From an uncultured Saprospiraceae bacterium (GTDB taxonomy: Bacteria; Bacteroidota; Bacteroidia; Chitinophagales; Saprospiraceae), in assembly GCA_964011275.1 (NCBI GenBank), contig CAXGOB010000018.1, forward strand, positions 2,951 through 66,950: DNA of 64,000 nt, read 5' to 3'. The position numbers and the translations under genes are program-made. Position 1 is the stretch's first letter. Each line of letters opens with the position of its first letter. Below, in pieces: positions 7,606-56,879 of the stretch. The notes below the pieces were generated by a model. The model was not told where the DNA came from and made no database searches. It worked only from the letters and a program-made list of their open reading frames with translations.

Positions 7606-7943
7606 GTCAGATTACAACACATATTCTTGACACAATGACTGGAAAACCTGCTGAAGGGATTACAATAATGTTGGAAGAATTGGATGAAAATAATAATTGG
7701 TCTGAATTGGCTTCTGGTATAACTAATACTGATGGAAGAATTAGTGATTTACTCAAGGATAATCAAGTGCTAGAAGAAGGGGTACATAGAATGTTGTTTC
7801 AGACTAAGGCTTATTTTGAAAACCAAAACTTGAAAAGTTTTTATCCAGAAATTCCAATCATTTTCGAGATAACCGATGAAAGCCATTATCATATACCGTT
7901 GCTTTTGAGCCCATATGGATATAGCACATATAGAGGAAGTTAG
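7602..7943 (+). CDS. hiuH: 5-hydroxyisourate hydrolase (transthyretin-like)
   Basis: 113 aa. Has the N-terminal ITTHILDT motif and the C-terminal YHIPLLLSPYGYSTYRGS signature of HIU hydrolases. There is a 4-nt overlap with uraD. Confidence 0.9.
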   Translation: MSQITTHILDTMTGKPAEGITIMLEELDENNNWSELASGITNTDGRISDLLKDNQVLEEGVHRMLFQTKAYFENQNLKSFYPEIPIIFEITDESHYHIPLLLSPYGYSTYRGS

Positions 7944-8112
7944 AGTTTATTATTGGAATAAAATGAGTCATACAAGGATCGCATGACTATAGGATAGACA
8001 CTCCCCCCAACACCTCTCTTTAAAATGAGAGGAGGAATTTACGCTTAGAGAAGGAGGGGTGAATTCAACGATAAAATATTAGCTGATTAAGCATTTATAA
8101 AATGTAACAGAG

Positions 8113-13102: not shown

Positions 13103-15436
<2,334 letters not shown>

Positions 15437-15440
<4 letters not shown>

Positions 15441-26008: not shown

Positions 26009-26668
26009 TCATGATCGTTTTAGAGTTTTGATATCAGCAATAAGTTGTTTGATATCAGCTTTGTTGAGACCATTATATATTCCTCTTATATGCTTTTGTT
26101 GATCTATTAATACAAAATTTTCTGTATGTAAAAAGTCATCTTCTTCCATTTCTAGCCCCATATCCTGTTCAACAAAGTAATCGAATCTACCTAGTCGATA
26201 TATTTCACTTCTTTTTCCAGTTACAAGATGCCATTTGTCGGCATTAATCCCTCTTTCAACAGCATATGTTTTTAGAATAGGTACAGAATCTCTTTTTGGA
26301 GTAACAGAATGTGAAAGAAGTCTTACCTCATCGTCATTTATGAATTCATCATGAAGGATGGCCATGTTTTGTGTCATCTTGGGGCATATGCCTGGGCAAG
26401 CCGTGAAAAAAAAATCTGTCACATATATCTTATTTTGGAAGGTGTTTTGGTCAATAGTGTCACCCAACTGATTGAATAATTCAAATGCGGATATTTTATG
26501 AAAATCAGATAATTCTCCATTGTCTGCCTCTATCCACTTTGGAGTAAAAGTAGCCTCGTCGTAATAGGGGAGAGATGCTACTCGACTATTGTTGACAATC
26601 TTTGAATTGCAAGAAATAAAAGACAATAATGCAATTATTATCCAAAAAATGTTATTCGTATTGTACAT
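26009..26668 (-). CDS. SCO1/SenC family copper chaperone (thioredoxin fold)
   Basis: 219 aa. Has a signal/lipobox (LSFISCNS), the CxxxC motif FFFTACPGICP and a conserved downstream His region. Confidence 0.85.
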   Translation of the reverse strand: MYNTNNIFWIIIALLSFISCNSKIVNNSRVASLPYYDEATFTPKWIEADNGELSDFHKISAFELFNQLGDTIDQNTFQNKIYVTDFFFTACPGICPKMTQNMAILHDEFINDDEVRLLSHSVTPKRDSVPILKTYAVERGINADKWHLVTGKRSEIYRLGRFDYFVEQDMGLEMEEDDFLHTENFVLIDQQKHIRGIYNGLNKADIKQLIADIKTLKRS

Positions 26669-27272
26669 CTTCTTTTTTTAGTTGATAACACAAGCTTGCT
26701 CTTTTTAAGCCAAAAGCTCTACCGTTCTTTGCTTCATAATTTATATACAGAATGCCATTTTCTCTCCATGCTTGTTGAAGTCCCTGTTCTTTTCCATTTA
26801 CAATGGTTGTTTTTTTAAATATCTGACCATTCGAGTACCAAAGTTTCTGGATTCCATGGGTAACTCCATTCACATAGTGTGACTCTTTGACTAATGTTCT
26901 GTAGGAGTGAGGAGACCATACTTTCAGAACTCCATCTAATCTGTTTTTCTTGTAAAATGCCTCTTTTCTAATAGTGCCATCTGGATACCAAAATTCTGCT
27001 TTCCCTTCCTTTCTTCCTTCATAATAGCCTATATTTTCGGACATTCTTCCATTTTCATGATGTGAAATGGATTGTCCAGAGAAGGGTACATTTCTATAAT
27101 ACCATTGACCCTTTTCTGGTATTAAAACTATTGAGTCTCTAGATATTTTAATATCAGGTACGATTGTATTGTACTCAACAGTTTTGCTGAAAGATTCAAA
27201 CAATGGACTTGAACCTAACCAGCAAACCATCAACAGAGTAGAGAAGTATTGAAAAATCTTAATTAATTGCAT
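26652..27272 (-). CDS. MORN-variant repeat (YwqK-like) protein
   Basis: Has repeated G-x-W-x-x-Y/W-x-x-G modules (GQWYYRN, FWYPDGT, KLWYSNGQ). The ORF is open to 27299. I prefer the Met at 27272 (MQLIKIFQYFSTLLMV..., signal-like). Both ends overlap the neighbouring genes. Confidence 0.6.
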   Translation of the reverse strand: MQLIKIFQYFSTLLMVCWLGSSPLFESFSKTVEYNTIVPDIKISRDSIVLIPEKGQWYYRNVPFSGQSISHHENGRMSENIGYYEGRKEGKAEFWYPDGTIRKEAFYKKNRLDGVLKVWSPHSYRTLVKESHYVNGVTHGIQKLWYSNGQIFKKTTIVNGKEQGLQQAWRENGILYINYEAKNGRAFGLKRASLCYQLKKEDVQYE

Positions 27273-28011
27273 TTGGAATTCCTTGATAATCTCCACCAAA
27301 AATTAGAATATGGGTACCTGTGTAAAATTCATTTATTATGTGATAATGATACTCAGATTCATTAGTGTGCTGAGTAACAGATGAATGCCCACCAGAAACA
27401 TCTAGGTCAGTGGGATAACCATTTGTAGCATGGCATTTTCTACCATAGATAAAAAAGCCATCTGCCATAATACCAACCAAATTTGTATCATTATTGCTAA
27501 GTGGAGAAGGTTCTAAATGATAATGATATACACCTGGACCTATATGTCCACCAGCATGATCAATACTCACAATAGCATTGGAAAGGGGGCCATTACCTTC
27601 TTCTCCGTTAAATATTGCAGCTCCACTTACAGATATTCCAATAGGACCAAGTCTGGTGGAACTGGTTGAGGCGGCTTTTTGAGGATCTGCAGATATCCTC
27701 AATGTAGCCGATGCATCAAAATTAGGAATAATGGAAGGTGTAGTATTAACATTTGGCTCATCTAGATACATCTCATGACCTTCACCCCAATAGGTGGTTG
27801 TGTGGTTAGGCATTCCATTTGTCTCTATTACAAATTCAGAACCGTCCATGTAAATATCTGTGTTGTTTTCATCGAACTCTGCAAATGCGGCATGGAGGGT
27901 GGCTTCTTGATCAGGATCTGTAATAGAAGGACCGCTGTCATTATCACTATTACATGATAACATACCAAATAAGGTGATGAGAATAAAATTGAAAAATATT
28001 GTGCCCTGCAT
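27259..28011 (-). CDS. YHYH-motif lipoprotein
   Basis: 250 aa. Has the lipobox GMLSCNS and two copies of the YHYH signature (GVYHYHLEP and SEYHYHIINE). Confidence 0.65.
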   Translation of the reverse strand: MQGTIFFNFILITLFGMLSCNSDNDSGPSITDPDQEATLHAAFAEFDENNTDIYMDGSEFVIETNGMPNHTTTYWGEGHEMYLDEPNVNTTPSIIPNFDASATLRISADPQKAASTSSTRLGPIGISVSGAAIFNGEEGNGPLSNAIVSIDHAGGHIGPGVYHYHLEPSPLSNNDTNLVGIMADGFFIYGRKCHATNGYPTDLDVSGGHSSVTQHTNESEYHYHIINEFYTGTHILIFGGDYQGIPNAIN

Positions 28012-28222: not shown

Positions 28223-28864
28223 TCAATGAGTCCAGGCCATTTGGCCTTCTGTCATCTCCATACATGGATTATAATCCCCAGGAATTGGATCATAAGCCAA
28301 AACTTCTGTGCCAACCTGTTCTGAGGTAAAATATCCTGCCATGATCAAACCCTTTAGCTCAGAATAGTAATGTCTGAATGACTCTGGCTCTTTTCTCTCC
28401 ATTGGTCCAGCTCTCACCGGTTCTTGATCTCCTTTATCTGCTTCTTTAGCTTTCATTGCCTCTCTTCTTGCTTCATTGGCACTATCTGCTTTGTCTTCGA
28501 GTGCTAATACTGCTTTTAACTTGTCATCCGTAGAAAGGCTCATAAATGAACCTCCTAAATCATTGCTTAAATTCTTTAAACCTGACAAAATGTGAGCTTT
28601 TTGATTAGGGCCAAAGGCATGAGCAATAACCTCATCCACAAATCTATGCGCTAATACATCTTTAGCGCCAGGAGTATCCGTAGCTGGAAGTATGGTTTCT
28701 CCTAACTCTGCAATCAATTCAATAGTGCTTTTATCAATTGCAGATGGCATCCACCCGGTTTCTGTAGGAGCTTTACAACCATTCATCACCGCTGCTATTG
28801 TACCGGCCGAGAGTGAATAACCTAATGCTAATCCAGTGTTTCTTAATGCTTCTCGTCTATTCAT
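28223..28864 (-). CDS. gluconate 2-dehydrogenase subunit 3-like small subunit with TAT signal
   Basis: 213 aa. Has the twin-arginine leader MNRREALRNTGLALG. Lies immediately downstream of the GMC flavoprotein. Confidence 0.7.
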   Translation of the reverse strand: MNRREALRNTGLALGYSLSAGTIAAVMNGCKAPTETGWMPSAIDKSTIELIAELGETILPATDTPGAKDVLAHRFVDEVIAHAFGPNQKAHILSGLKNLSNDLGGSFMSLSTDDKLKAVLALEDKADSANEARREAMKAKEADKGDQEPVRAGPMERKEPESFRHYYSELKGLIMAGYFTSEQVGTEVLAYDPIPGDYNPCMEMTEGQMAWTH

Positions 28865-28876
28865 AATTAGGTTATT

Positions 28877-30577
28877 TTAGATGTTATTATTCAATTGATT
28901 AGTGGCGTGACTAGCTGCTCTTGCAGTAAGTGCCATGTAAGTAATAGAAGGATTTTGACAAGCAGATGAAGTCATGCATGCCCCATCAGTGACATATACA
29001 TTAGGTACCGCATGAATTGCATTATCCCCATTCAGTACAGAGGTTTTTGGATCCCTGCCCATACGAGCTGTCCCCATTTCATGAATTCCAAGCCCTGGCC
29101 CTCCAATATCGCTATATGTTCTAATGTTCTTAAATCCTGACACTTCTAACATTTCAGCAGCATTATTAGCCATATCAGCTCTCATGGCCATTTCATTCTC
29201 TCTGAATTCGCAATCAAAAGTGACGGTAGGAACACCCCATTTGTCTAGCTTGTCGTAATTCAAATACATCTTATTTCTATGATCTGGGAGCATTTCAGCG
29301 AAAGCTGTCATACCCATTGACCATTTGCCTGGTTGCCCCATCATTTCTTTGAATTGAGGACCAGCTTTTAGTTCAGCTACCATGCTTCCCCAGCCACCTC
29401 TTCTTGCTCCTCCTTGATAACCCCAACCTCTTAGATAGTCTTTTTTGGATGCCTGGTCACCAAGATTAGTAGTCCTTGCTACATAAAACCCTGTCGGTCG
29501 ACGTCCTTTGTAGTACTTATCATCAAATCCATCTACTTCTGCACTTGCTCCGGTCTTGAAATGATGATCCATAAGGTTATGTCCTAATTCTCCACTGTCA
29601 TTGCCCATTCCATTTGGAAAACGTTCTGACTTACTGTTCAATAATATACTTGTAGAGGCAATTGCAGATGCACAAAGGAAGATCACTTTTGCGTAATACT
29701 CATAGGTTTCCTTAGTCTCTGTGTCTATTACATTTACACCAATGGCCTTACCTGAAGCATCATCATAGATTAATGAATGTACAATAGAGAAAGGTCTTAA
29801 TGTCATGTTTCCTGTGGCCATTGCTGCAGGAAGAGTAGAGGCTTGTGATGAAAAGTAAGCCCCATAAGGACATCCTCTTATACACCTGTTTCTATTTTGA
29901 CATTTTCCTCTACCGTTATGCGGTTGAGTAAGGTGTGCTGTCCTTCCAATAGTCATTGTCCAACCTAATGCCTTTTTGATTCTCTCTCTAGCATGTTGTT
30001 CGACACAGTTTAACTCAAAATTACCCATGAATTTTGCATCTGGTACTTGGGCTAAACCTTCATTCATTCCTTGAATACCAATAAATTGCTCTACATAATC
30101 GTACCAGGGCTCTATATCACTATACCTTATGGGCCAGTCTACTGCTACTCCGTCCTTTGCATTAGCTTCAAAATCCATTTCACTCCATCTATATACTTGT
30201 CTACCCCAAGTTATGGATCTACCACCTACGTGATAACCACGACACCAGTCAAATCGTTTGTCTTCATAGTACGGATGTTCGCTATCTTTAACAAACCAAT
30301 GCTTCGTTGCCTGGCTTGTAGTATATCCAGTTCTACTTTGCATTGGATAGTGTTCCATTTGTTCGGCATAATCACTTCTGCCACGCAATGGAAGATCCCA
30401 TGAGTCTAAACTTGCTGTAGGGTATTCTCCATGTTTGACATCTCTTCCTCTATCAAGAACCAAAGTTTTTAATCCTTTTTCTGTTAACTCTTTTGCAGCC
30501 CAGCCTCCACTTATTCCTGATCCTACAACTATTGCATCATAAGTTACTTCTGCTTCTCCTTGTGAATTGAATAACAT
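28877..30577 (-). CDS. GMC family FAD-dependent oxidoreductase
   Basis: 566 aa. Has the N-terminal FAD fold YDAIVVGSGISGGWAA and the C-terminal GMC active-site region GIHEMGTARMG / VTDGACMTSS. It has no signal peptide of its own. Confidence 0.85.
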   Translation of the reverse strand: MLFNSQGEAEVTYDAIVVGSGISGGWAAKELTEKGLKTLVLDRGRDVKHGEYPTASLDSWDLPLRGRSDYAEQMEHYPMQSRTGYTTSQATKHWFVKDSEHPYYEDKRFDWCRGYHVGGRSITWGRQVYRWSEMDFEANAKDGVAVDWPIRYSDIEPWYDYVEQFIGIQGMNEGLAQVPDAKFMGNFELNCVEQHARERIKKALGWTMTIGRTAHLTQPHNGRGKCQNRNRCIRGCPYGAYFSSQASTLPAAMATGNMTLRPFSIVHSLIYDDASGKAIGVNVIDTETKETYEYYAKVIFLCASAIASTSILLNSKSERFPNGMGNDSGELGHNLMDHHFKTGASAEVDGFDDKYYKGRRPTGFYVARTTNLGDQASKKDYLRGWGYQGGARRGGWGSMVAELKAGPQFKEMMGQPGKWSMGMTAFAEMLPDHRNKMYLNYDKLDKWGVPTVTFDCEFRENEMAMRADMANNAAEMLEVSGFKNIRTYSDIGGPGLGIHEMGTARMGRDPKTSVLNGDNAIHAVPNVYVTDGACMTSSACQNPSITYMALTARAASHATNQLNNNI

Positions 30578-37316: not shown

Positions 37317-37807
37317 ATTGGTTATTTATAAATCTTATCAGCTTTGCAAAATATATAATTCAATTGAAATGATATGTATGGGATCCCAAATCGGAACCCT
37401 TAAGCTGCGATAAGGCAGCAGATCAGCATAGTGAGAAATAAAATGATGAGACCAGAAAAGAAATACTGCAGTGTCTTTTTATAATAGGCCTGTGAATATA
37501 TTGGGCCCGCTTAGATTTATCATTTAATATGAGCCTAGAAGCTCTTTCTGCGGACATTAAAGTATGTATATAATGACCTCATCCCAGAAGTCAATTGTCT
37601 TCTGGTTTTTCATTATGAGCTTAATTTATGTCCTCCTAGTATTCTTCTGAATTATCAACTTCATCACAGATGATAAAATCAAAATTTGAGCTATTTGCTT
37701 CTAATTGATTCATGGATAAAACATGGATTCCAGGCAGGACCATTTTTCAAATCGAATACTAGAATTTCATGGCAAGCACCTGCAGATGATATTTATTAAA
37801 CTGTGGA

Positions 37808-38971
37808 TTACATTAATTTTCTAAATCCTATTCCAAAGTATAATTTCTTAATCATTTCTATATATTGATTTGTAAATCGTTCATTATCAAAAAGATCAAA
37901 AAAAGATCTTTTTGACGAACAAATGCTATTCTTTCATTTTGGGTGTATTTTACCATCTGATGTAATCTGATCTTCTTTTATCAATGATATCCATGACAAC
38001 CTTTTTTTCGTCTACTCCATTATCGCTATAATAACACCATGCTGTAATCACTAATGTTTCGTACTCTTTACTCCCTCTGGATTCTAAATTTTCAATAAGT
38101 GTGGCAATTAAGAATTTAGGCAATTTAACAGAGCTCTCTGAGCATATTCGACTTACACCATCACTAATGTTAGAGATAGAAAAACTTCTTCAAGACTATC
38201 TTTTTATTTATCTAAATCTATACCTTATGTTTCATCAAGATTGACAGAGGCCTCTTTATCCTTAAATGCCCATATGAATTGGCTAAATACCGGATCATTC
38301 ATACAATACTCAATAGTGTCATGGCCGTGAATTGCTCCGGGAATCCCTAATACAGAATTTCCAGCATTGAGCAATCGAATTTTCATTTTTTCATATGGTA
38401 GGACGTCAGGTACAAATTAAACTCCTAATTTTTCTAATTGGGCCTTCCATTACAAAATTTATCTTCAATTATCCATTTAAAAAATGGCTCATATACTACA
38501 GCTCATTCATCAATGATTCCATAATTTGTTTTTAGATAATTAGAATCAGAATCTTTTGATACCGGAGTGATTCTGTCTAGTATTGAATTGAGGAATCTTA
38601 CCATTTTCTCAATCCACTTTGCTAGTTCTAGATCTTGTCTTTCTTTCCGAATTTTTAGAACTGCTGTCAAATATCCAGATGCTGTTTTGGGTGGACTATT
38701 ATTTTTTAGAGCATGAATGATCTCAGGGTTGTTAAAGTAGAATTCTCCTGTTGAAGGATTAAAGTTATATCCTCATGTGTAATTGTGAGTGAAACAATTT
38801 TAGTGTCGGAATGAGAGAGTTCTTCAATGGCTAATTCAGGAGTATCAACTGCAAGGGTATTATTCATAATAGATGCTATAATTTTACTTTCTATCTGTCC
38901 ATCAGGATGTTGAATGATAAGAGTATATCATCGATCTTGTTTTCTAAGAATTTTAGATTTGATATGTTCAT
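37808..38971 (-). pseudogene. decayed mannitol dehydrogenase family gene (mannitol 2-dehydrogenase/fructuronate reductase-like)
   Basis: My own minus-strand translation recovers ordered family blocks in shifting frames. The blocks are YTLIIQHPDGQIESKIIASI...IVSLTITHE; GYNFNPSTGEFYFNNPEIIHAL...ASGYLTAVLKIRKE; LAKWIEKMVRFLNSILDRITPVS; DE*AVVYEPFFKWIIEDKFCNGRP; VPDVLPYEKMKIRLLNAGNSVLG; NISDGVSRICSESSVKLPKFL...VITAWCYY; and FDNERFTNQY...*. There are at least 3 in-frame stops and at least 4 frameshifts. The N-terminal Rossmann part and the SCDN region are missing. Confidence 0.8.
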
Positions 38972-39048
38972 TTGATCAGGACCTGACTTAATCTTTTATC
39001 AATATGAAATTTTAGTTTGTATCATTGTTAAATTAGAAATTGGAAGCT

Positions 39049-47353: not shown

Positions 47354-47988
47354 TTAAATCAAGTCCCAGTCCATGACTTTCTTTATCATTCCCACTGAAT
47401 TCTGTACGTCCATTTTTACAAATAAATTTCTTTTATGCGTGGCTACAGTATTAGTACTCAGAAATAGTTTGTCAGCAATTTCCTGAGTCGTAAATTCTTT
47501 AGCAATAAGTTTTATTACTTCTAGTTCTCTTTTAGTAATCTTGGGAAGATCACCAGGTTTTGCAACAGGCTTTTCTGATAAGCTCTCAATCATTTTAGCA
47601 GTAAGATTGGAACTCAATATTTTCTTTCCTTGATAGGCATCTTTAATACCTTGAATGAGTACTTCTTTGCTAGAATTTTTAAGTAAATAGCCGATAGCCC
47701 CTTTTTTGAATATGGATGTAATAATACTTCCTTCGTCATTAGTTGTAAGCATTAATATTTTCAAGTTTGGATAAGACTTAGAAGCATGCATAGTGGTCTC
47801 TAAGCCGTCCATTACCGGCATTTGAAGATCTGTAGAAGAACATCTACATCATTGTTACTAAGAAACTCTGGTACCTCTAGACCATTTGAAGCCGTACCTA
47901 TGACCTTTAAATGTTTGTCTTGTGAAAGTATAGCCTTGATGCCATCCAACAAGATTTGGTGGTCATCAGCAAGAAGTATTTTTATCAT
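47354..47988 (-). pseudogene. NarL/LuxR-type response regulator with a 1-nt frameshift at the phospho-acceptor region
   Basis: From the ATG at 47988 the translation is MIKILLADDHQILLDGIKAILSQDKHLKVIGTASNGLEVPEFLSNNDVDVLL, then the frame breaks around 47831-47840. The next frame continues TDLQMPVMDGLETT...LKILMLTT... and ends in a LuxR HTH (LTKRELEVIKLIAKEFTTQEIADKLFLSTNTVATHKRN). The total is 635 nt, one nt short of an intact 211-codon gene. There is an ATGA overlap with the kinase stop. Confidence 0.8.
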
Positions 47989-49880
47989 GATATTTCGTTT
48001 TCTGTGTTGGAATCGCTTTCTATTCTTTGAAGTGGAACATTTATAGTTACTAATGTTCCAGCACCTGGCCGGCTGTCTATCTCATAATTTCCACCTACAT
48101 AGCCGGTTCTGAATTCTATACTTTTTAGACCCATTCCTTTTTCGGAGTCTATTTGTTCTATATCAAAGCCCTTTCCGTCGTCCTCAATAGTTAGATTGAG
48201 CCACTCATCACTGTAAGTTAACTGTAACAACACCTCATCGGCTTGAGCATATTTTACTATATTATTTAGGAGCTCTTGTACTATGCGAAAGAGCATCACA
48301 TTTGTGTTGTCATTCAAAAGCTTATCAGAGCCATAAACTAAAAACTGAGCATCAAAAGGATGAGTCATGTCCATTTTAGTAATCAAATCTTCAAGGGCCT
48401 TTCTTAAACCAAGTTTTTTAAGAGCTTGAGGCATCATCTTGTGGGCAATTTTTCTTACTTCACTACAGGCTTCGTCTATCATATCACTAGCCGTATTGTA
48501 AATCCTAGTGGTCCCCTTATTGTCAAAATCAATTTTAAGAGTACTGATCTTCGCTTTCAAAGTAGATAGAAGATTACCAAGACCATCATGTAAATCTCTA
48601 GCAATTCTAGACCTTTCTTTTTCCTGACCATCCAGCATTGATCTCATAGATATTATCTGTTGTTCTTGTTTAGCTTCAGTTAACAATAGTTGATTTGCCT
48701 TTATTCTGTTTTGATAAAATAGCACTCCAATGATTAGTGCTGATAGCAGGACTCCAATTGAAAATACCAATAAATTCACTTGTCTTTCTTTTTTACTATT
48801 AATAATCTCTTCTTCAAGTAGTCGGTTTCTTAGCCTTTCTCTTTCATATTGAATTTTCATATCAGCTAGAGCCTCAAGGCTAGATTCGCTCAGTTTATAT
48901 TCCTCATATATAGTTTTTTGATCCCACAGAATTTGATAGGCTTGACGAAATTCATCAAGAAGGAGATGCTTTCTTCGCTGTGCATCCATGATCGTGTACA
49001 TGAATCCATCGCTGTCAGTAACTCCTGGTATAGCCAAAGCACGATCTAATAATCCTTGCGAACTTGAAACACCAATCTTTTCTAAATTTTGAACTAATAA
49101 GGTGGTGTCTTTACCATTTTCTGCAGCTTCATATATTAGTGAAGCCATATTGATAAGAGACTCAGCAGCTCCTATGTTATTAACCTTTATCCTCTATTCA
49201 TAGGACTCAATGTAGTTCTCAAGTGCCAAATTGTAATTTCCCATGAGTCTCGAACATTGTCCTAACCCAACATAAATTCTAGCAATGTCTATTGGTGCTC
49301 TAGGTATTTCTGATAATCTGAAATCCAGAGCTCTGTTATACTTAGCTATGGCCTTTTCAGGTTGTCCATTCATGTAATCACATATTGCCCAATTGTTAAG
49401 AATGGCAGCCTGTCTTTCTTTATTTGACGTTTCTACATATAAATCAAATCCTTGTTGATACGCTTTTTCACTTTCTTCAAAAGACTCATAATTCATAAGA
49501 ATCGCTCCTTTGGTATCATAGACTTTACCTAGCCCATTTTTATCATTGATTGAGTTGAAGAATAAAACGGCACTATCCAAATAAGCAGTTTTTAAATTCA
49601 TTTTATCATAGTCATGGCACCAAGCTGCTCTATGAAAAGCACGGCCTATTAGACGAGGGGAATTGAGTTTTTTTGCTAAAGAAATTGCTCGATATGAATA
49701 TTCTACAGCATCATTTCCATTATAAAGTATATAAGCGATTTTTATATAGGTCTCACATTTAAGACTATCATCTGGCATGGTTTCCACTACTTGTATCAGA
49801 CTATCCAATACATCTATAGTATAATTCTCAGAAGGATGTGCTAAAATGAAAAAGAGGATGTAAATCAATTTTTTGAACAT
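47985..49880 (-). pseudogene. TPR-repeat sensor histidine kinase (HisKA_3 + HATPase_c) split by one in-frame TAG
   Basis: ORF 49194-49880 (signal peptide plus TPR repeats) and ORF 47985-49148 (TPR tail, TM, H-box RIARDLHDGLGNLLS, ATPase N/G boxes) share one frame. The junction reads ...ENYIESYE-TAG-RIKVNNIGAAESLINMASLIYEAAENGK..., with the stop at 49194-49196. Confidence 0.8.
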
Positions 49881-50165
49881 ATCCTAAGTTACTATGTCTT
49901 TGTCGATTTTTATGTCTGGACTTTGGGAATAGTGAGTCATAATGCTTTTAGTCTAAGAATATGTAGCAAAGTTAGATGACAACATGACTGAATGGTATAG
50001 TTCAATTCTATGATTTTATTCCTCACACAATTGTGTAATGCTTTTAGTAGAAAAGGATGATTTTAAGAAATCATGGTTTTGGGTGTAGCCTCACCATACA
50101 TTTCTAAGTGAACTTTGTGTCATCAGAAATAATCTGATAAGCTTGTAAATCAAAAACTAAAAGTT

Positions 50166-50672
50166 TTGGAAAACCAAGAAACACTTTCAGTATCACGTCT
50201 TCAAAGAATTCGAGATCAAGGCTATTTTGAGGAAACCCAAGACGAACTAATAGCAATGGCTTATGGCAATAGATTCGCTTATATACTCTGCACTGGAATG
50301 TTAACTCTTGGTGTTTTAAGTGGGAGTATATTGATCCTCTCTACTATCATGTGCATAGTCACATTGACATTGGTGCTGCCATATCATCCTTTTGACCATG
50401 TCTATAATATGCTTATAGCCAATGGGAAAGACAAACTAGAATTACCGCCAAGATCACCTCAAATAAAATTTGCTTACGGCATAAAGGCTATTTGGATAGG
50501 ACAAATTATTTGTTTGTTTGCGACAGGTCTCTATTCTGTGGCTTTCCTGATGGGATGTTTATTGGTAGTTCTGATGCTTATAGTAAGTATAACTGATTTG
50601 TGTCTATTTTCTGTGATTTACAATTCTTTTTTCCTAAAGGATTCTTCAAAAACCGACTATTCAATTTCTTAA
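50166..50672 (+). CDS. small 4-TM membrane protein of unknown function
   Basis: 168 aa from a TTG start. Has four hydrophobic segments and faintly resembles DUF4395-type proteins. Start and family are uncertain. Confidence 0.35.
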   Translation: MENQETLSVSRLQRIRDQGYFEETQDELIAMAYGNRFAYILCTGMLTLGVLSGSILILSTIMCIVTLTLVLPYHPFDHVYNMLIANGKDKLELPPRSPQIKFAYGIKAIWIGQIICLFATGLYSVAFLMGCLLVVLMLIVSITDLCLFSVIYNSFFLKDSSKTDYSIS

Positions 50673-50804: not shown

Positions 50805-52178
50805 ATGTGCCATAAAGTGACTTATGCTGGAATAAATCAAGAGGTTTCAAATGATGATGCCTTCAATACGTTATTGGATGTCTCTATTGAGAATCAAATT
50901 CCTCATCTTCATGAATGCGGAGGTCAAGGCAATTGTACCACATGCAGGGTAAGGGTGATTAATGGTATGCAAAACCTGACATCAAAGACCTAAAAGGAAA
51001 AGATCGTATCCCAAGCTAGAAAATGGGATCCTACAATCCGCTTAGCATGTCAAGCTTGTGTGAAAGGAGATGTGGAGATACAAAGATTAATTTGGTCAAA
51101 TGGCGAGGTGAATCAACTTCAAAAAGAACTTGCTCCTGAAGGTAGAGCCGAAGAACGTCCAATCGCAATTCTATTCTGTGATTTAAGGAACTACACGAGC
51201 ATGTCATCTAAGAACTTGACATTTGACATGGCATTTATGCTGAATCGGTTCTACACTGCATTAGGCGAACCAATTTTGATGAATAATGGAATTATTTATC
51301 AGTATGTTGGTGATGAGATAATTGGAGTTTTTGGAACAACTGGAGGTACTAAAGAGAAGAATTGTACTGATGCAATTAGAGCAGCTCTTGGAATGCAATA
51401 TGCCCTGGATTTATTGAATAAGACAGAGCTTCGGGATTTTAATATCACTTTAAAATCTGGAATTGGTGTAAACTTCGGTAGAGCATATGTCGGACATTTA
51501 GGTCATCCAACTCATCGGCAATTTTCTGTAATTGGTGATCCTGTAAATGTGGCAAGTAGGATTCAAGGACAAACCAAATTGAATGGAGTAAATATTCTTA
51601 TTTCTAAATCAGTAAGAGATAGCATCAAAAACAATCCGATAATGATTGGTGAATCTTTTGATGCTGACTTAGCTGGTATAGAAGAGACAGCTGAACTCTA
51701 TGAGCTTATTGGATTCAAGGATATGGACCTTCAGCTAGAATTGCAAGCCTCTCTGAATTTGATGTTGGATGATGAAGATAAGTTTGCGGCATTATTCTAT
51801 AACAATGTCTTTAAGATTGCTCCTCAAGCTAGAGCTTTGTTCAGAAGGAATATGACTGATCAAGGAAGATTGCTTACACATATGTTAGGAGGTATTGTTT
51901 ATTCACTTTCTAGACCACAACATCTGACCACAGGGCTTAAGAAATTAGGTGAAAGTCATGTCAAATATGGAGTGAAATTAGAGCATTATCCTGTTGTCAA
52001 ACAAGCAATGCTCGAGACCATTGATATGACCTTAGGGGAGAACAAAACGGAAAAGACCATGGATGCATGGAATGCTGCCCTGGATTTTGTCATAGATGCT
52101 ATGCAGAATGCCGCGAAAGCTATAGATATGAGAGAAACATCAATCAATGAGCAACAAGAAATAAAACAGGCTTCATAG
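50805..52178 (+). pseudogene. 2Fe-2S ferredoxin / class III adenylate-guanylate cyclase / globin three-domain gene with one in-frame TAA (alternatively a cyclase-globin CDS from the GTG at 51060)
   Basis: One frame is continuous across the TAA at 50991-50993. The Fer2 ligands are CGGQGNCTTC before the stop and IRLACQAC after it. The cyclase has metal Asp blocks ILFCDLRNYT and YVGDEIIGVF plus GDPVNVASRIQ. The C-terminal globin-like region is ALFYNNVFKIAPQARALF...LGESHVKYGVKLEHY...DAWNAAL. Confidence 0.65.
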
Positions 52179-52228: not shown

Positions 52229-52960
52229 ATGAAAGCAATCACATTCATTTATGGTATTATCGCTTACTTCATATTCTTTGCTACTTTTTTATATGCAGCA
52301 GGATTTATGGGAAATCTATTGGTTCCAAAAGACATTGATACAGGCCCTGAGACTAGCATGACATCTGCTCTCATTATTAATGCTCTTTTGTTGTCTGTTT
52401 TTGCTGTCCAACATAGTCTCATGGCTCGACCAGCATTCAAGGAATGGTGGGTTAAATTAGTAGGTAAAGCGGGAGAACGTAGTACATATGTATTGTTCTC
52501 TAGTTTGGCACTTATTCTCCTTTTTTGGAAATGGCAGCCTATTAAATCAACAATATGGGAAGTTGAGAATGAAACATTGAGACTGGTCTTGACAGGAGTG
52601 TTTTTAGTTGGGCTATTAGTTGTATTGCTTTCTACTTTTATGATAAACCATTTCAGCCTTTTTGGTCTAAAGCAAGTTTATCAGAATATGATGAATCAAA
52701 AAGAAACAGAAGAGCCTTTTACAACTCGATTCTTTTATGCATTTGTAAGGCACCCCATTATGCTCGGTTTTTTGATTATGTTATGGGCTGTCCCTACCAT
52801 GACCTTAGGCCACCTATTCTTTTCAATAGGAAGTACTCTTTACATATTTATTGCCGTGAAATATCTAGAAGAAAAAGACTTAAGAAATATGATTGGAAAG
52901 AAATATGAGGACTATCAGAAAAAGGTCCCTATGTTGATTCCATTCATTGGATGGAAATAA
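52229..52960 (+). CDS. ICMT/PEMT-superfamily membrane methyltransferase (MddA-like)
   Basis: 243 aa polytopic protein. Blocks FLYAAGFMGNLLVPKDID, FAVQHSLMARPAFKEWW, ERSTYVLFSS and INHFSLFGLKQV match my memory of the methanethiol S-methyltransferase MddA family. Not verified. Confidence 0.5.
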   Translation: MKAITFIYGIIAYFIFFATFLYAAGFMGNLLVPKDIDTGPETSMTSALIINALLLSVFAVQHSLMARPAFKEWWVKLVGKAGERSTYVLFSSLALILLFWKWQPIKSTIWEVENETLRLVLTGVFLVGLLVVLLSTFMINHFSLFGLKQVYQNMMNQKETEEPFTTRFFYAFVRHPIMLGFLIMLWAVPTMTLGHLFFSIGSTLYIFIAVKYLEEKDLRNMIGKKYEDYQKKVPMLIPFIGWK

Positions 52961-55687: not shown

Positions 55688-56119
55688 ATGTTATTGAACA
55701 TTGAATTGGAATTTAACAGAATGAGTGCAAAATTTATCGGATCAGCAACAGTTTTGATCGTGCATGATGTAGAATCTACAGTCCTTTATTATAGAGATAA
55801 ATTGGGTTTTCATTTTAATAGATTTTGGGGAGACCCACCTTCATTTTGTATTCTTCATCGAGATGCTCACAGTATTATGCTGAGCAAGGTGGAATCTGAT
55901 TCTTTATTAACTCCAAATAATAATCTAACACTGGATTTTTGGGATATCTATTTTTGGACGGATGATGTAAGGGCATTAAGGGAAGAGTACATTACAAAAG
56001 GTGCAGAACTCTATCATCCTTTAACTGAAAAGGGATATGGAGTTTTAGAATTTGAGGTAAAGGATATAAATGGCTACATCATTGCCTTCGGTGAGGAATT
56101 GCCAGAACCTATACATTGA
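55688..56119 (+). CDS. VOC (glyoxalase/bleomycin resistance) family protein
   Basis: 143 aa. Has a beta-alpha-beta-beta-beta module pattern (VLIVHDVESTVLYYRDKLGF ... FEVKDINGYIIAFGE). An alternative start is the Met at 55721. Confidence 0.65.
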   Translation: MLLNIELEFNRMSAKFIGSATVLIVHDVESTVLYYRDKLGFHFNRFWGDPPSFCILHRDAHSIMLSKVESDSLLTPNNNLTLDFWDIYFWTDDVRALREEYITKGAELYHPLTEKGYGVLEFEVKDINGYIIAFGEELPEPIH

Positions 56120-56123
56120 CAAT

Positions 56124-56879
56124 ATGCATCGACACTCTTCAATAAATAAGATTCTCGCATTTCTTTCATTAATCCTTTATATATCGTGTACTGATTTAAG
56201 CTCAAATGAAAATGCAGAATCTAAGGAAGATTATGAGCTTCTGATCAATTTAGAAGGAGAAAGTAATTTTTGGTTAAGACGACACCTTGTGGACTATTTT
56301 GTCATGGTTGCACTTGGATCAGAATATGGCTCTGATTTTAAAATCAGTAGAAAATGGCATAGCCATATGAAAGTTATTGTAAAAGGAGTTCATGACCCTT
56401 TATTAATCAATGAGCTGGATAAAATTATAAATGAAATTAATGACCTCTCTCAGGATGGGTTTAGAATTGAAAGGGTGGGGGATGACGAAGAATCAAATTT
56501 TACGATCTTCTTAGGAGGAAAACGAGAATACAACCTGTTGTTTCCTGGTGCAAGTGATTTGATAGAAAAAAATGATGGTTTGTTTAGATTGAAAATGGAT
56601 GATTTTGTCATTAAAGAGGGTAGTCTTTTTGTGAATTCGGAGTTAAATTCATTTGAAGTGAAAAAGCATTTATTAAGAGAAGAATTAACTCAATCACTTG
56701 GGCTAGGAAATGATATTGAACATTATGCCAATAGTATTTTTTATCAGCAGCCATCTAGAGTAACAGAATACAGTACAAATGACAAAGAAATAATCAGACT
56801 ACTTTATCATCCGCAAATGGTAGCAGGGCTTTCAGAAGATTCTGTGAGGGGAATACTAGAAGGAATTTTGGGATTATGA
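56124..56879 (+). CDS. hypothetical lipoprotein (DUF2927-like?)
   Basis: The ORF is open from 56070 inside the previous gene. The ATG at 56124 gives MHRHSSINKILAFLSLILYISCTD (lipobox) right after the VOC stop. The block LREELTQSLGLGND is reminiscent of DUF2927. Not verified. Confidence 0.4.
   Translation: MHRHSSINKILAFLSLILYISCTDLSSNENAESKEDYELLINLEGESNFWLRRHLVDYFVMVALGSEYGSDFKISRKWHSHMKVIVKGVHDPLLINELDKIINEINDLSQDGFRIERVGDDEESNFTIFLGGKREYNLLFPGASDLIEKNDGLFRLKMDDFVIKEGSLFVNSELNSFEVKKHLLREELTQSLGLGNDIEHYANSIFYQQPSRVTEYSTNDKEIIRLLYHPQMVAGLSEDSVRGILEGILGL

What the first reader, a model, noticed from the sequence alone, without database searches (positions are those of the whole stretch)
50805..52178. 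Ferredoxin / class III nucleotidyl cyclase / globin fusion, interrupted by a single in-frame TAA
Architecture:
- ORF 50805-50993 and ORF 51060-52178 form one frame. There are 23 sense codons between the TAA at 50991-50993 and the tracked GTG, and no other stops.
- The joined 457-codon product starts with a 2Fe-2S ferredoxin domain with Cx5Cx2C (CGGQGNCTTC). The fourth Cys lies about 34 residues later (IRLACQAC), so the stop falls between cluster ligands.
- Next comes a class III cyclase homology domain. Both metal Asp blocks (ILFCDLRNYT, YVGDEIIGVF) and the Asn/Arg transition-state block (GDPVNVASRIQ) are intact.
- It ends in a C-terminal globin-like domain with a B10-type Tyr (ALFYNNVF) and a proximal-His context (LGESHVKYGVKLEHY).

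Why it stands out: characterised globin-coupled sensors carry the globin at the N-terminus, with GGDEF, MCP or kinase outputs. A cyclase sandwiched between an Fe-S domain and a heme domain would couple redox and gas (O2/NO/CO) sensing to cAMP or cGMP. I do not know of a characterised example of this architecture.

Effect of the stop: this copy could be dead, could express only a cyclase-globin protein from 51060, or could need readthrough.
Basis: partly seen in the sequence, partly recalled or inferred. Interest (0 to 1): 0.75.

Follow-up and report, generated by a model that had tools for sequence, protein, structure and literature searches.

The report
Broken iron-sulfur/haem-linked nucleotide cyclase gene
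This is a recently inactivated copy of a widespread but never-studied bacterial signalling enzyme that joins an iron-sulfur domain, a cyclic-nucleotide-making domain and a haemoglobin-like domain; the two partner regulator genes beside it are broken too, so this marine bacterium appears to be discarding the whole signalling unit.

Summary
A single TAA (50991-50993) interrupts one reading frame whose repaired 457-residue product carries Fer2, class III cyclase and globin domains, all above Pfam thresholds.

The architecture is not unique. More than 100 intact orthologues of about 440 aa (57-77% identity) occur in Flavobacteriaceae, Algoriphagus and Saprospiraceae. More distant full-length relatives exist, and so do variants where the Fer2-cyclase core carries a peroxidase, an FNR-like reductase or an N-terminal globin.

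The globin belongs to the flavohaemoglobin family, not the sensor (GCS) family. The cyclase is CyaC/Cya2-like, with an unusual invariant Gln/Ser pair at the substrate-specifying positions.

In about 19 genomes the gene sits divergently from one intact TPR-histidine kinase plus a NarL-type response regulator. The shared spacer holds two conserved 16-bp palindromes.

In this window all three genes are broken by separate single-base lesions: TAA, TAG and a 1-nt deletion. The same lesions appear in independently assembled Tara Oceans contigs from other samples, so they are real. The stop codons are ordinary terminators here.

Best reading: a recent pseudogene within a decaying module of a marine Saprospiraceae. 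No characterised member of the family was found in the literature searched.

The parts
50805..50993 (+). 5' fragment of the gene: the first 62 codons of the 2Fe-2S ferredoxin domain (ligands C38, C44, C47), ending in the in-frame TAA
   Evidence: The exact 62-aa product is on record on 12-15 public contigs.
50991..50993 (+). In-frame TAA (codon 63). The closest orthologues have Glu here, so GAA to TAA is the likely single-base change. The position is variable across the family.
   Evidence: alignment. Identical in L082, L083 and L084.
50994..51059 (+). 22 sense codons continuing the ferredoxin domain, including the fourth cluster ligand C82 (51048-51050)
50820..51065 (+). Fer2 (PF00111) domain, residues 6-87, split by the stop. 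Nearest solved relatives are PnsB3 and adrenodoxin/putidaredoxin-type ferredoxins.
51066..51155 (+). Conserved linker (RLIWSxGEVNxLQKELxPEG; W97, Q106 and E108 invariant), partly helical in the model. It joins the ferredoxin domain to the catalytic domain.
51156..51677 (+). Class III nucleotidyl cyclase catalytic domain (residues 118-291): D126 and D170 bind metal, N248 and R252 stabilise the transition state, Q166 and S241 occupy the substrate-specifying positions
   Evidence: Foldseek TM about 0.86 and rmsd about 2 A to CyaC, Cya2 and CyaB.
51795..52103 (+). C-terminal flavohaemoglobin-family globin domain (residues 331-433): Y332 (B10), Q353 (E7), H385 (F8)
51060..52178 (+). Downstream ORF (GTG start, 372 aa) holding the linker, cyclase and globin. 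It would lack the whole iron-sulfur site if expressed alone.
   Evidence: Called as a gene in Tara/ENA data.
49881..50165 (.). Conserved divergent regulatory spacer of the module. It holds the CAAAGTTA box (49967-49974, facing the kinase), palindrome 1 TCACACAATTGTGTaA (50023-50038, one mismatch at 50037), palindrome 2 TGATTTTaAgAAATCA (50058-50073) and the GAACTTTG box (about 50110-50117).
50166..50672 (+). Intact DUF4395 membrane-protein gene, lying between the operator region and the cyclase gene in this lineage (also in L003)
47985..49880 (-). Partner TPR + HisKA_3 + HATPase histidine kinase, a single 621-664-aa gene (623 aa in most) in orthologous loci. Here it is interrupted by an in-frame TAG at 49194-49196, where the nearest relatives have Tyr.
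47354..47988 (-). Partner NarL/GerE-type response regulator (about 213 aa in orthologues, 75-79% identical). Here it is frameshifted by loss of one base at 47831-47832, in the Leu codon just before the phospho-acceptor Asp.
52229..52960 (+). Intact NnrU-family membrane-protein gene directly downstream. It is a recurrent neighbour of the cyclase in 8-12 orthologous loci.

Best explanation
**What is shown.** The locus is a recently inactivated copy (pseudogene) of a conserved three-domain signalling enzyme with no experimental characterisation. The domains are an N-terminal [2Fe-2S] ferredoxin domain, a class III (CyaC/Cya2-like) nucleotidyl cyclase, and a C-terminal flavohaemoglobin-family globin.

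In many Bacteroidota this gene belongs to a module. It lies divergently from a TPR-HisKA_3 histidine kinase and a NarL-type response regulator. The shared spacer carries two conserved 16-bp palindromes between outward-facing promoter boxes.

In this marine Saprospiraceae population, all three genes have been knocked out by independent single-base lesions:
- the cyclase by GAA to TAA;
- the kinase by TAY to TAG;
- the regulator by a 1-nt deletion.

One palindrome is also mutated. The module is being lost.

**What is inferred for the intact enzyme.** It works as a homodimeric cyclase.
- The ferredoxin domain occupies the usual N-terminal regulatory position, attached through a conserved helical linker.
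- The globin has Tyr-B10, Gln-E7 and His-F8, like NO-dioxygenase-type globins. It would bind O2 or NO and exchange single electrons with the cluster.
- The combined redox and ligand state would then set the rate of cyclic-nucleotide synthesis.

The product is probably cAMP. The Gln/Ser specificity pair leaves this open.
For: **Fusion and domains.**

**Intact orthologues.** More than 100 proteins of about 440 aa have the same three Pfam domains. 143 genome stretches encode a relative, and the 80 loci kept all match the query in a single frame. All cofactor and catalytic residues are invariant in 112 sequences.

**Domain typing.**

**Module.**
- One intact kinase (621-664 aa, 623 in most) sits at a fixed position beside the cyclase in about 19 loci from three orders, followed by a regulator of about 213 aa in about 17 of them.
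- A HisKA_3 kinase is the commonest neighbour, in 33 of 79 loci.
- The exact palindrome TCACACAATTGTGTGA occurs once per locus in 16 orthologous loci, 114-144 bp upstream of the start.

**The lesions are real.** The TAA, the TAG and the frameshift are identical in contigs from other Tara samples and another assembler.

**The lesions are specific to the module.** Every other suspicious ORF pair in the 64-kb window is a pair of complete, separate genes.

**Decay is continuing.** The only three SNPs among the population's contigs over 8.2 kb are all in the module. They are kinase D/E, kinase W to stop, and the palindrome.

**Standard genetic code.** TAA 16, TAG 16 and TGA 11 terminate the 43 long ORFs. 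The window has no tRNA and no Rfam element.

**Support for a redox role.** The Fer2-cyclase core recurs with other redox partners: peroxidase, FNR-like FAD/NAD module, N-terminal globin.
Against: **Against 'dead'.**
- Apart from the stop, the cyclase copy shows no sign of decay. It has 0 departures from columns invariant in 18 orthologues.
- No SNPs fall in it among the population's contigs.
- So the inactivation is very recent, or a truncated product is still under selection.
- All three lesions lie in the N-terminal sensor parts of their genes, and an in-frame start codon follows each.

**Limits of the data.**
- No reads and no expression data were available.

**Limits of the proposed mechanism.**
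- It rests on domain identity, conserved residues and architecture comparisons only.
- No cofactor binding, electron transfer or catalysis has been shown for any member.
- I could not obtain model coordinates to measure the cluster-to-haem distance.
Confidence: 0.7

Rival explanations
1. Split but still functional. The stop removes only the ferredoxin domain. A cyclase-globin protein is made from the GTG at 51060 (or by re-initiation), and it acts as a haem-only sensor or as a deregulated cyclase. The truncated kinase and regulator fragments might likewise keep their output domains.
For: - The downstream ORF is otherwise pristine, with 0 departures at invariant columns and no SNPs in it.
- All three lesions lie in N-terminal sensor parts, each followed by an in-frame start codon.
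- Gene callers call the 372-aa ORF as complete.
Against: - The regulator's frameshift cuts the receiver domain at the phospho-acceptor Asp, so the fragment cannot be a normal receiver.
- One population variant has a second stop inside the kinase core region.
- The operator palindrome is mutated.
- The apparent Fer2-less relative P0116 turned out to be cut by its contig end.
- The linker and Fer2 residues are as conserved as the catalytic ones across 112 orthologues, which argues that the ferredoxin domain is needed.
Confidence: 0.17
2. Programmed readthrough or recoding of the TAA (and of the TAG in the kinase) gives full-length proteins.
For: - The frame is open on both sides of the stop.
- The sequence is otherwise intact.
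- Two in-frame stops lie in neighbouring genes.
Against: - TAA and TAG terminate 32 of the 43 long ORFs in the window, and 'TAAA' occurs seven times as a true terminator.
- The window holds no suppressor tRNA and no known RNA element.
- The stop sits at a variable, unimportant position, and intact orthologues use ordinary sense codons there.
- The third gene of the module is hit by a frameshift instead. That fits random damage, not a recoding system.
Confidence: 0.03
3. Sequencing or assembly artefact: the real gene is intact.
For: None beyond the prior that single in-frame stops in metagenome assemblies are sometimes errors.
Against: - The identical TAA, TAG and frameshift occur in contigs from different Tara samples and different assemblers. 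These are L082 (SAMEA2620980 scaffold), L083 (ERR599302 k127 contig) and L084 (SAMEA2620985 scaffold). They differ from one another by 1-3 SNPs, so they are not copies of one record.
- The fragment is on record on 12-15 contigs from NCBI, ENA and Logan.
- The rest of the window shows no broken genes.
Confidence: 0.03

Closest known systems
Globin-coupled adenylate cyclase HemAC-Lm of Leishmania, and globin-coupled sensors in general (HemAT, DosC/YddV, AfGcHK)
   Same: A haem-globin domain in one polypeptide with a signalling output. HemAC pairs a globin with a class III adenylate cyclase. The review PMC7475203 lists adenylate cyclase among GCS outputs.
   Different: - GCS proteins have an N-terminal S-family (sensor/protoglobin-type) globin. 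Here the globin is C-terminal and of the F (flavohaemoglobin) family: Protoglobin scores 12.5 bits against a cut-off of 25, and the best solved relatives are F-type.
- GCS proteins have no iron-sulfur domain.
Flavohaemoglobin (Hmp/FHb, NO dioxygenase)
   Same: - Same globin family with the Tyr-B10, Gln-E7 and His-F8 signature (NCBIfam PRK13289 local hit; 1cqx, 3ozu and 1gvh).
- A globin fused to a built-in electron-transfer domain.
   Different: - FHb carries a C-terminal FAD/NAD reductase and no cyclase. Here the redox partner is a 2Fe-2S domain and a cyclase lies between the two.
- The full-length FHb model is far from met (49 bits against 432).
- Relatives such as P0167 carry Fer2-cyclase-FNR, so the family between its members holds the pieces of an FHb-like electron chain.
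HbRC of Chloroflexus aurantiacus (globin fused to a Roadblock/LC7 domain, PDB 3wfw)
   Same: Best sequence match to the globin domain (E 2.5e-17, aligned over 118 residues). It is an F-type globin fused to a putative signalling domain.
   Different: Different partner domain and different domain order. It has no cyclase and no Fe-S domain.
Class IIIb-type soluble cyclases: CyaC (Spirulina, 1wc0-1wc6), Cya2 (Synechocystis, 2w01), CyaB (P. aeruginosa, 3r5g)
   Same: - Same catalytic fold (TM about 0.86, rmsd about 2 A).
- Same metal Asp pair and Asn/Arg.
- Homodimeric type, with all catalytic residues in one chain.
   Different: - The specificity pair is Gln166/Ser241, against Lys/Thr in CyaC and CyaB and Glu/Gly in Cya2.
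- The sensor domains differ.
Soluble guanylate cyclase (H-NOX haem sensor plus class III cyclase)
   Same: Works alike in outline: a haem gas sensor controls a class III cyclase (established knowledge; 4ni2 and 8hbe appear among the fold hits).
   Different: - The haem domain is H-NOX, not a globin.
- sGC is heterodimeric.
- It has no Fe-S domain.
- It is eukaryotic.
Mycobacterial cyclase with a Gln/Asn specificity pair (Rv0386 type)
   Same: Gln at the Lys/Glu position. Such an enzyme is reported to make cAMP with a guanylate cyclase side activity (preprint 10.1101/2024.03.06.583649 citing its reference 50; also my own recollection of Castro et al. 2005).
   Different: - The second residue here is Ser, not Asn.
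- The domain context is unrelated.
Putidaredoxin or adrenodoxin with P450
   Same: The Fer2 domain is closest to this ferredoxin class (terpredoxin, putidaredoxin, E. coli Fdx). Their known job is one-electron delivery to a haem protein.
   Different: Those are separate small proteins serving mono-oxygenases. No cyclase is involved.

Membership tests
Class III nucleotidyl cyclase | Catalytic domain matches PF00211 above the curated cut-off and has the class III fold | tested here: met
   52.0 bits against 21.9. Foldseek TM 0.84-0.88 and rmsd about 2 A to CyaC, Cya2 and CyaB.
Class III nucleotidyl cyclase | Two metal-binding Asp plus the transition-state Asn and Arg | tested here: met
   D126 and D170 are invariant. 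N248 and R252 are at least 90% conserved in 112 orthologues and present in the window copy.
Class III nucleotidyl cyclase | Canonical substrate-specifying pair: Lys/Asp or Lys/Thr for ATP, Glu/Cys-type for GTP | tested here: not met
   Gln166 aligns to Cya2 Glu488 and to the Lys of CyaB and CyaC. Ser241 aligns to their Thr or Gly. Both are invariant. The product nucleotide is therefore undetermined.
Class III nucleotidyl cyclase | Makes cAMP or cGMP | not testable with these tools
   Needs an enzyme assay.
Globin-coupled sensor (S-family globin, N-terminal) | Sensor/protoglobin-type globin domain | tested here: not met
   Protoglobin PF11563 scores 12.5 bits against a cut-off of 25. All the best solved relatives are F-family globins.
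Globin-coupled sensor (S-family globin, N-terminal) | Globin at the N-terminus with the output domain C-terminal | tested here: not met
   The globin occupies residues 331-433 of 457, C-terminal to the cyclase. A permuted relative with an N-terminal globin exists (P0158).
Flavohaemoglobin-family (F) globin domain | PF00042 above cut-off, with proximal His F8, Tyr B10 and Gln E7 | tested here: met
   54.4 bits against 22. H385, Y332 and Q353 are invariant and align to the corresponding residues of HbRC and Hell's Gate globin.
Flavohaemoglobin-family (F) globin domain | Binds haem and a diatomic ligand | not testable with these tools
   Needs spectroscopy.
Flavohaemoglobin (whole protein, Hmp) | Globin followed by an FAD- and NAD-binding reductase module | tested here: not met
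   NCBIfam PRK13289 scores 49 bits against a cut-off of 432, a local hit to the globin part only. No FAD or NAD domain is present.
[2Fe-2S] ferredoxin domain (Fer2, PF00111) | Model above cut-off and four Cys ligands with C-x5-C-x2-C...C spacing | tested here: met
   38.8-43.2 bits against 21. C38, C44, C47 and C82 are invariant in 112 orthologues. In the window copy the stop separates ligand 3 from ligand 4.
[2Fe-2S] ferredoxin domain (Fer2, PF00111) | Carries a redox-active cluster | not testable with these tools
   Needs UV-vis and EPR.
Pseudogene (inactivated copy) | The disabling lesion is real and absent from orthologues | tested here: met
   The same TAA appears in independent contigs. 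The orthologues are intact.
Pseudogene (inactivated copy) | Signs of relaxed selection | tested here: inconclusive
   The linked kinase, regulator and operator are damaged, and all 3 population SNPs fall in the module. The cyclase ORF itself has 0 departures at invariant columns.
Pseudogene (inactivated copy) | No functional product made | not testable with these tools
   Needs transcript or protein data.

The most novel reading that the evidence does not exclude
The Fer2-cyclase core is a general converter of redox state into cyclic nucleotide, and the first class III cyclases governed by an iron-sulfur cluster.

Its C-terminal (or N-terminal) partner domain would set what is sensed:
- O2 or NO through an F-type globin;
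- peroxide through a haem peroxidase;
- NAD(P)H through an FNR-like module.

The partner would do this by passing electrons to or from the cluster. In Bacteroidota the globin version is wired to a TPR-kinase/NarL two-component system through a shared palindromic operator. The unit is also found fused behind a cNMP-gated ion channel or a Ser/Thr kinase.
Probability: 0.4. Interest if true: 0.75.

Novelty: new variant of a known kind. Interest (0 to 1): 0.55.

Why it matters
**The family.** Sensor-coupled class III cyclases and globin-coupled sensors are both well known. No enzyme has been described in which an iron-sulfur domain and a flavohaemoglobin-type globin flank the cyclase.

The family is large, strongly conserved and abundant in marine and sediment Bacteroidota, a phylum whose cyclic-nucleotide signalling is little studied. 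Several features make it directly testable as a model for how redox and gas signals reach cAMP or cGMP:
- invariant cofactor ligands;
- an unusual Gln/Ser specificity pair;
- a conserved operator shared with a two-component system;
- sister architectures carrying a peroxidase or an FNR-like module.

Cultured species with intact genes are available, including Algoriphagus, Maribacter, Flagellimonas and Robiginitalea.

**This window.** The window's own copy matters less as an enzyme. It is a clean natural example of a whole signalling module being lost in a pelagic lineage: three linked genes and their operator are hit while every neighbour stays intact.

Tried and rejected
1. **General assembly error.** I tested every other overlapping or in-frame ORF pair in the window (26009-28011, 13118-15440, 55688-56879, 28223-30577 and others). 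All are complete, separate genes.
2. **A second lineage with a truncated Fer2 domain.** P0116 (398 aa, no Fer2 hit) is only cut by its contig end. The upstream frame is open.
3. **Scans of JGI metagenome contigs.** I searched for the DNA around the stop with the codon wild-carded, and then with a codon-degenerate pattern. An exact-protein look-up gave the independent contigs instead.
4. **Exact look-up of the Tara protein P0001.** Not on record because of its V-for-M first residue. Its twin P0121 is on record.
5. **Suppressor tRNA or a recoding RNA element.** The window has no tRNA and no Rfam hit.
6. **Codon reassignment.** Rejected from stop-codon usage.
7. **CRP-type reading of palindrome 1.** The half-sites TCACA and TGTGA are present but in the opposite order to the CRP consensus TGTGA-N6-TCACA as I recall it. 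I do not call it a CRP site.
8. **Measuring cluster-to-haem distance in the AlphaFold model.** Coordinates are not exposed to me. Only pLDDT 81.8 and pTM 0.78 are available.
9. **Literature.** Seven searches found no description of the architecture. The Fer2/Guanylate_cyc co-mention in PMC554113 is only a table of over-represented domains.
10. **Pfam scan of the 37.3-39.0 kb gap.** Abandoned because every frame is full of stops.
Full report
**1. The observation**

The sequence is as described. ORF 50805-50993 (62 aa) ends in TAA at 50991-50993. The same frame continues without a stop through the GTG at 51060 to the TAG at 52176-52178. There are 22 sense codons, not 23, between the TAA and the GTG.

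With the stop repaired, the 457-residue product matches three Pfam models above their curated cut-offs:
- Fer2: residues 6-87, 38.8 bits against 21.
- Guanylate_cyc: residues 118-291, 52.0 bits against 21.9.
- Globin: residues 331-433, 54.4 bits against 22.

The stop falls between the third (C47) and fourth (C82) cluster ligands.

**2. The architecture is real, conserved and common**

- A search of 5.8 billion proteins returned 671 hits. More than 100 of the top 120 are intact proteins of about 437-450 aa with the same three domains at 63-77% identity. They come from Flagellimonas/Allomuricauda, Maribacter, Robiginitalea, Eudoraea, Robertkochia, Algoriphagus and Saprospiraceae.
- A scan of one genome per species found 143 stretches that encode a relative. 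The 80 loci kept all match the query in a single frame.
- In 112 orthologues the invariant residues are the four Cys (C38, C44, C47, C82), the metal Asp pair (D126, D170), Q166, S241, Y332, Q353 and H385. N248 and R252 are at least 90% conserved.
- The one apparent Fer2-less relative (P0116) is merely cut by its contig end.
- A search of 1.84 billion cluster representatives shows the family reaches much further. It found 440 representatives at E <= 1e-30, and some 25 of them, at 29-45% identity, match end to end.

A Pfam sample of these distant relatives shows the Fer2-cyclase core in several contexts:

| Protein | Architecture |
|---|---|
| P0175 | Fer2 + cyclase only |
| P0181 | Fer2 + cyclase + haem peroxidase |
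| P0167 | Fer2 + cyclase + FNR-like FAD/NAD module |
| P0158 | globin + Fer2 + cyclase (N-terminal globin) |
| P0154 | Fer2 + an unassigned middle region + globin + cyclase |
| P0148 | cNMP-gated ion channel + Fer2-X-globin unit |
| P0161 | Ser/Thr kinase + Fer2-X-globin unit |

In P0148, P0161 and P0145 the middle (cyclase-position) region falls below the Pfam threshold.

**3. Typing the domains**

*Globin.* It belongs to the flavohaemoglobin (F) family, not the sensor (S) family of globin-coupled sensors.
- Its best solved relatives are the Chloroflexus globin-Roadblock protein HbRC (3wfw, E 2.5e-17), Hell's Gate globin, thermoglobin, Vitreoscilla Hb and flavohaemoglobins.
- NCBIfam gives a local hit to the globin part of Hmp.
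- Protoglobin is below threshold.

*Cyclase.* It is nearest to Cya2, CyaB, CyaC and the photoactivated cyclases. An AlphaFold model of the intact orthologue P0002 (pLDDT 81.8, pTM 0.78) superposes on them at TM about 0.86 and rmsd about 2 A. No solved chain covers more than one domain of the model.

Residue-level alignment puts Gln166 at the Lys/Glu position: it aligns to Cya2 Glu488, and to Lys in the E488K chimera 6fht. Ser241 falls at the Asp/Thr/Cys position. That pair is neither the adenylate nor the guanylate canon. A mycobacterial cyclase with a Gln/Asn pair is reported to make cAMP with a cGMP side activity (plus my own recollection). The product here is therefore undetermined, with cAMP the better guess.

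*Ferredoxin domain.* It is closest to PnsB3 and to adrenodoxin/putidaredoxin-type ferredoxins. Those are known as one-electron donors to haem enzymes.

**4. A conserved module around the gene**

- In about 19 loci from three orders, the cyclase gene lies about 280 bp from, and divergent to, one intact TPR-HisKA_3-HATPase kinase of 621-664 aa (623 in most). A NarL/GerE response regulator of about 213 aa follows in about 17 of these loci. It is 75-79% identical to the window's fragment.
- A HisKA_3 kinase is the commonest neighbour overall, in 33 of 79 loci.
- Other recurrent neighbours are a FAD/BBE oxidase (15 loci), an OsmC-like protein (9), an NnrU-family protein (8-12) and a universal stress protein (5).
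- The spacer is strongly conserved. It contains:
  - an outward-facing box CAAAGTTA, which reads TAnnTTTG on the kinase strand. That matches the Bacteroidota -7 promoter consensus as I recall it;
  - a perfect 16-bp palindrome TCACACAATTGTGTGA;
  - a second palindrome TGATTTTTAAAAATCA;
  - a GGGTGTA box;
  - a (T/G)AACTTTG box facing the cyclase.
- The first palindrome occurs exactly once per locus in 16 orthologous loci, 114-144 bp upstream of the cyclase start (125-144 bp in all but one), and nowhere else in those loci.
- The window keeps all these elements at 49967-50117, upstream of an intact DUF4395 gene. In this lineage that gene sits between the operator and the cyclase.

**5. What happened in this window**

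All three genes of the module are disrupted by separate single-base events:

| Gene | Lesion | Orthologues at that site |
|---|---|---|
| Cyclase | TAA at 50991-50993 | Glu in the nearest relatives (GAA to TAA) |
| Kinase | TAG at 49194-49196 | Tyr in the nearest relatives (TAY to TAG) |
| Response regulator | one base lost at 47831-47832 | Leu codon before the phospho-acceptor Asp (DVLLLDLQMPVMDG) |

*Nothing else is broken.* Every other suspicious ORF pair in the 64 kb is a pair of complete genes.

*The lesions are not artefacts.*
- The 62-aa fragment is on record on 12-15 contigs.
- Contigs from other Tara Oceans samples and another assembler carry the identical TAA, TAG and frameshift. They differ from the window by only 1-3 SNPs in 8.2 kb.
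- L082, a 70,372-nt Tara scaffold, is identical to the window over that span. It is probably the window's source.

*The population SNPs all fall in the module, and none is silent*:
- kinase D/E at 48324;
- kinase W to stop at 48925 (in L083);
- position 50037 inside palindrome 1. L083 keeps the consensus G there, while the window has A.

*Organism and code.*
- Identical neighbouring proteins are named by NCBI as coming from a Saprospiraceae MAG.
- The code is standard: TAA 16, TAG 16 and TGA 11 terminate the 43 long ORFs.
- No tRNA or Rfam element lies in the window.

**6. Interpretation**

The best-supported reading is a recent pseudogene inside a decaying three-gene module of a pelagic Saprospiraceae.

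The main caveat is that the cyclase ORF is otherwise pristine. It has 0 departures at columns invariant in 18 orthologues, and no population SNPs fall in it. So either the loss is very recent or a truncated cyclase-globin is still used. I give that rival about 0.17. Readthrough and artefact are each about 0.03.

For the intact enzyme I infer a homodimeric cyclase controlled by the redox and ligand state of its two metal centres. None of this has been shown.
- The ferredoxin domain sits in the usual N-terminal regulatory position, attached through a conserved, partly helical linker.
- The globin would act as the O2/NO-binding and electron-exchanging partner.

The recurrence of the same Fer2-cyclase core with other redox domains (peroxidase, FNR-like module) is the strongest indirect support for the cluster being the element that talks to the cyclase.

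**7. Comparison with what is known, and novelty**

- The enzyme would work like a globin-coupled or H-NOX-coupled cyclase. It fails the membership tests for globin-coupled sensors on both globin family and domain order.
- It passes the tests for a class III cyclase, apart from the specificity pair.
- It also passes those for an F-family globin and a Fer2 domain.
- The review PMC7475203 describes GCS proteins as carrying an N-terminal globin, with adenylate cyclase among their outputs.
- Seven literature searches found no description of a Fer2-cyclase-globin protein or of any Fe-S-linked class III cyclase. That library lacks most subscription-journal papers, so an earlier mention in a domain census cannot be excluded.
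- The domain composition is already machine-annotated in public records.

I rate it a new variant of a known kind. The family is interesting and directly testable, but this particular copy is dead.

Noticed in passing
window 47354-47988 (- strand): A NarL/GerE-type response regulator is split by a 1-nt deletion at 47831-47832, just before the phospho-acceptor Asp. Orthologues are intact proteins of about 213 aa, 75-79% identical to the fragment.
   Followed up: yes
window 47985-49880 (- strand): A TPR + HisKA_3 + HATPase histidine kinase is interrupted by an in-frame TAG at 49194-49196. Orthologues are single genes of 621-664 aa (623 in most). One Tara variant (L083) has a further W to stop change at 48925.
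   Followed up: yes
window 49967-50117; L004-L029 at about 7850-7990: The divergent spacer is conserved. It has two 16-bp palindromes (TCACACAATTGTGTGA and TGATTTTTAAAAATCA) between outward-facing TAnnTTTG-like boxes. The first palindrome is exact and unique in 16 orthologous loci. The window copy has a mismatch at 50037 that is polymorphic in the population. Which protein binds these sites is unknown.
   Followed up: partly
window 52229-52960 and 50166-50672: Intact NnrU-family and DUF4395 membrane-protein genes flank the broken cyclase. The NnrU-like gene recurs next to the cyclase in 8-12 orthologous loci, which hints at a link to the nitric-oxide response. I did not examine the function of either gene.
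   Followed up: partly
proteins P0148, P0161, P0167, P0181, P0158: Sister architectures of the Fer2-cyclase core exist. They are a cNMP-gated ion channel + Fer2-X-globin, a Ser/Thr kinase + Fer2-X-globin, Fer2-cyclase-FNR-like, Fer2-cyclase-haem peroxidase, and globin-Fer2-cyclase. In P0145, P0148 and P0161 the middle domain falls below the Pfam cyclase threshold, so it may be degenerate.
   Followed up: partly
window 37317-39039: A 1.7-kb stretch has no ORF longer than 57 aa and 44-49 stops in each minus-strand frame. Its GC is 31-33%, and it has no tRNA or Rfam hit. It may be a heavily degraded gene or a long non-coding spacer.
   Followed up: partly
L014 9370-10767 and 14 other loci: A FAD_binding_4/BBE-type oxidase gene lies about 46 bp downstream of the intact cyclase in 15 orthologous loci, probably co-transcribed with it. 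It is absent from the window.
   Followed up: no
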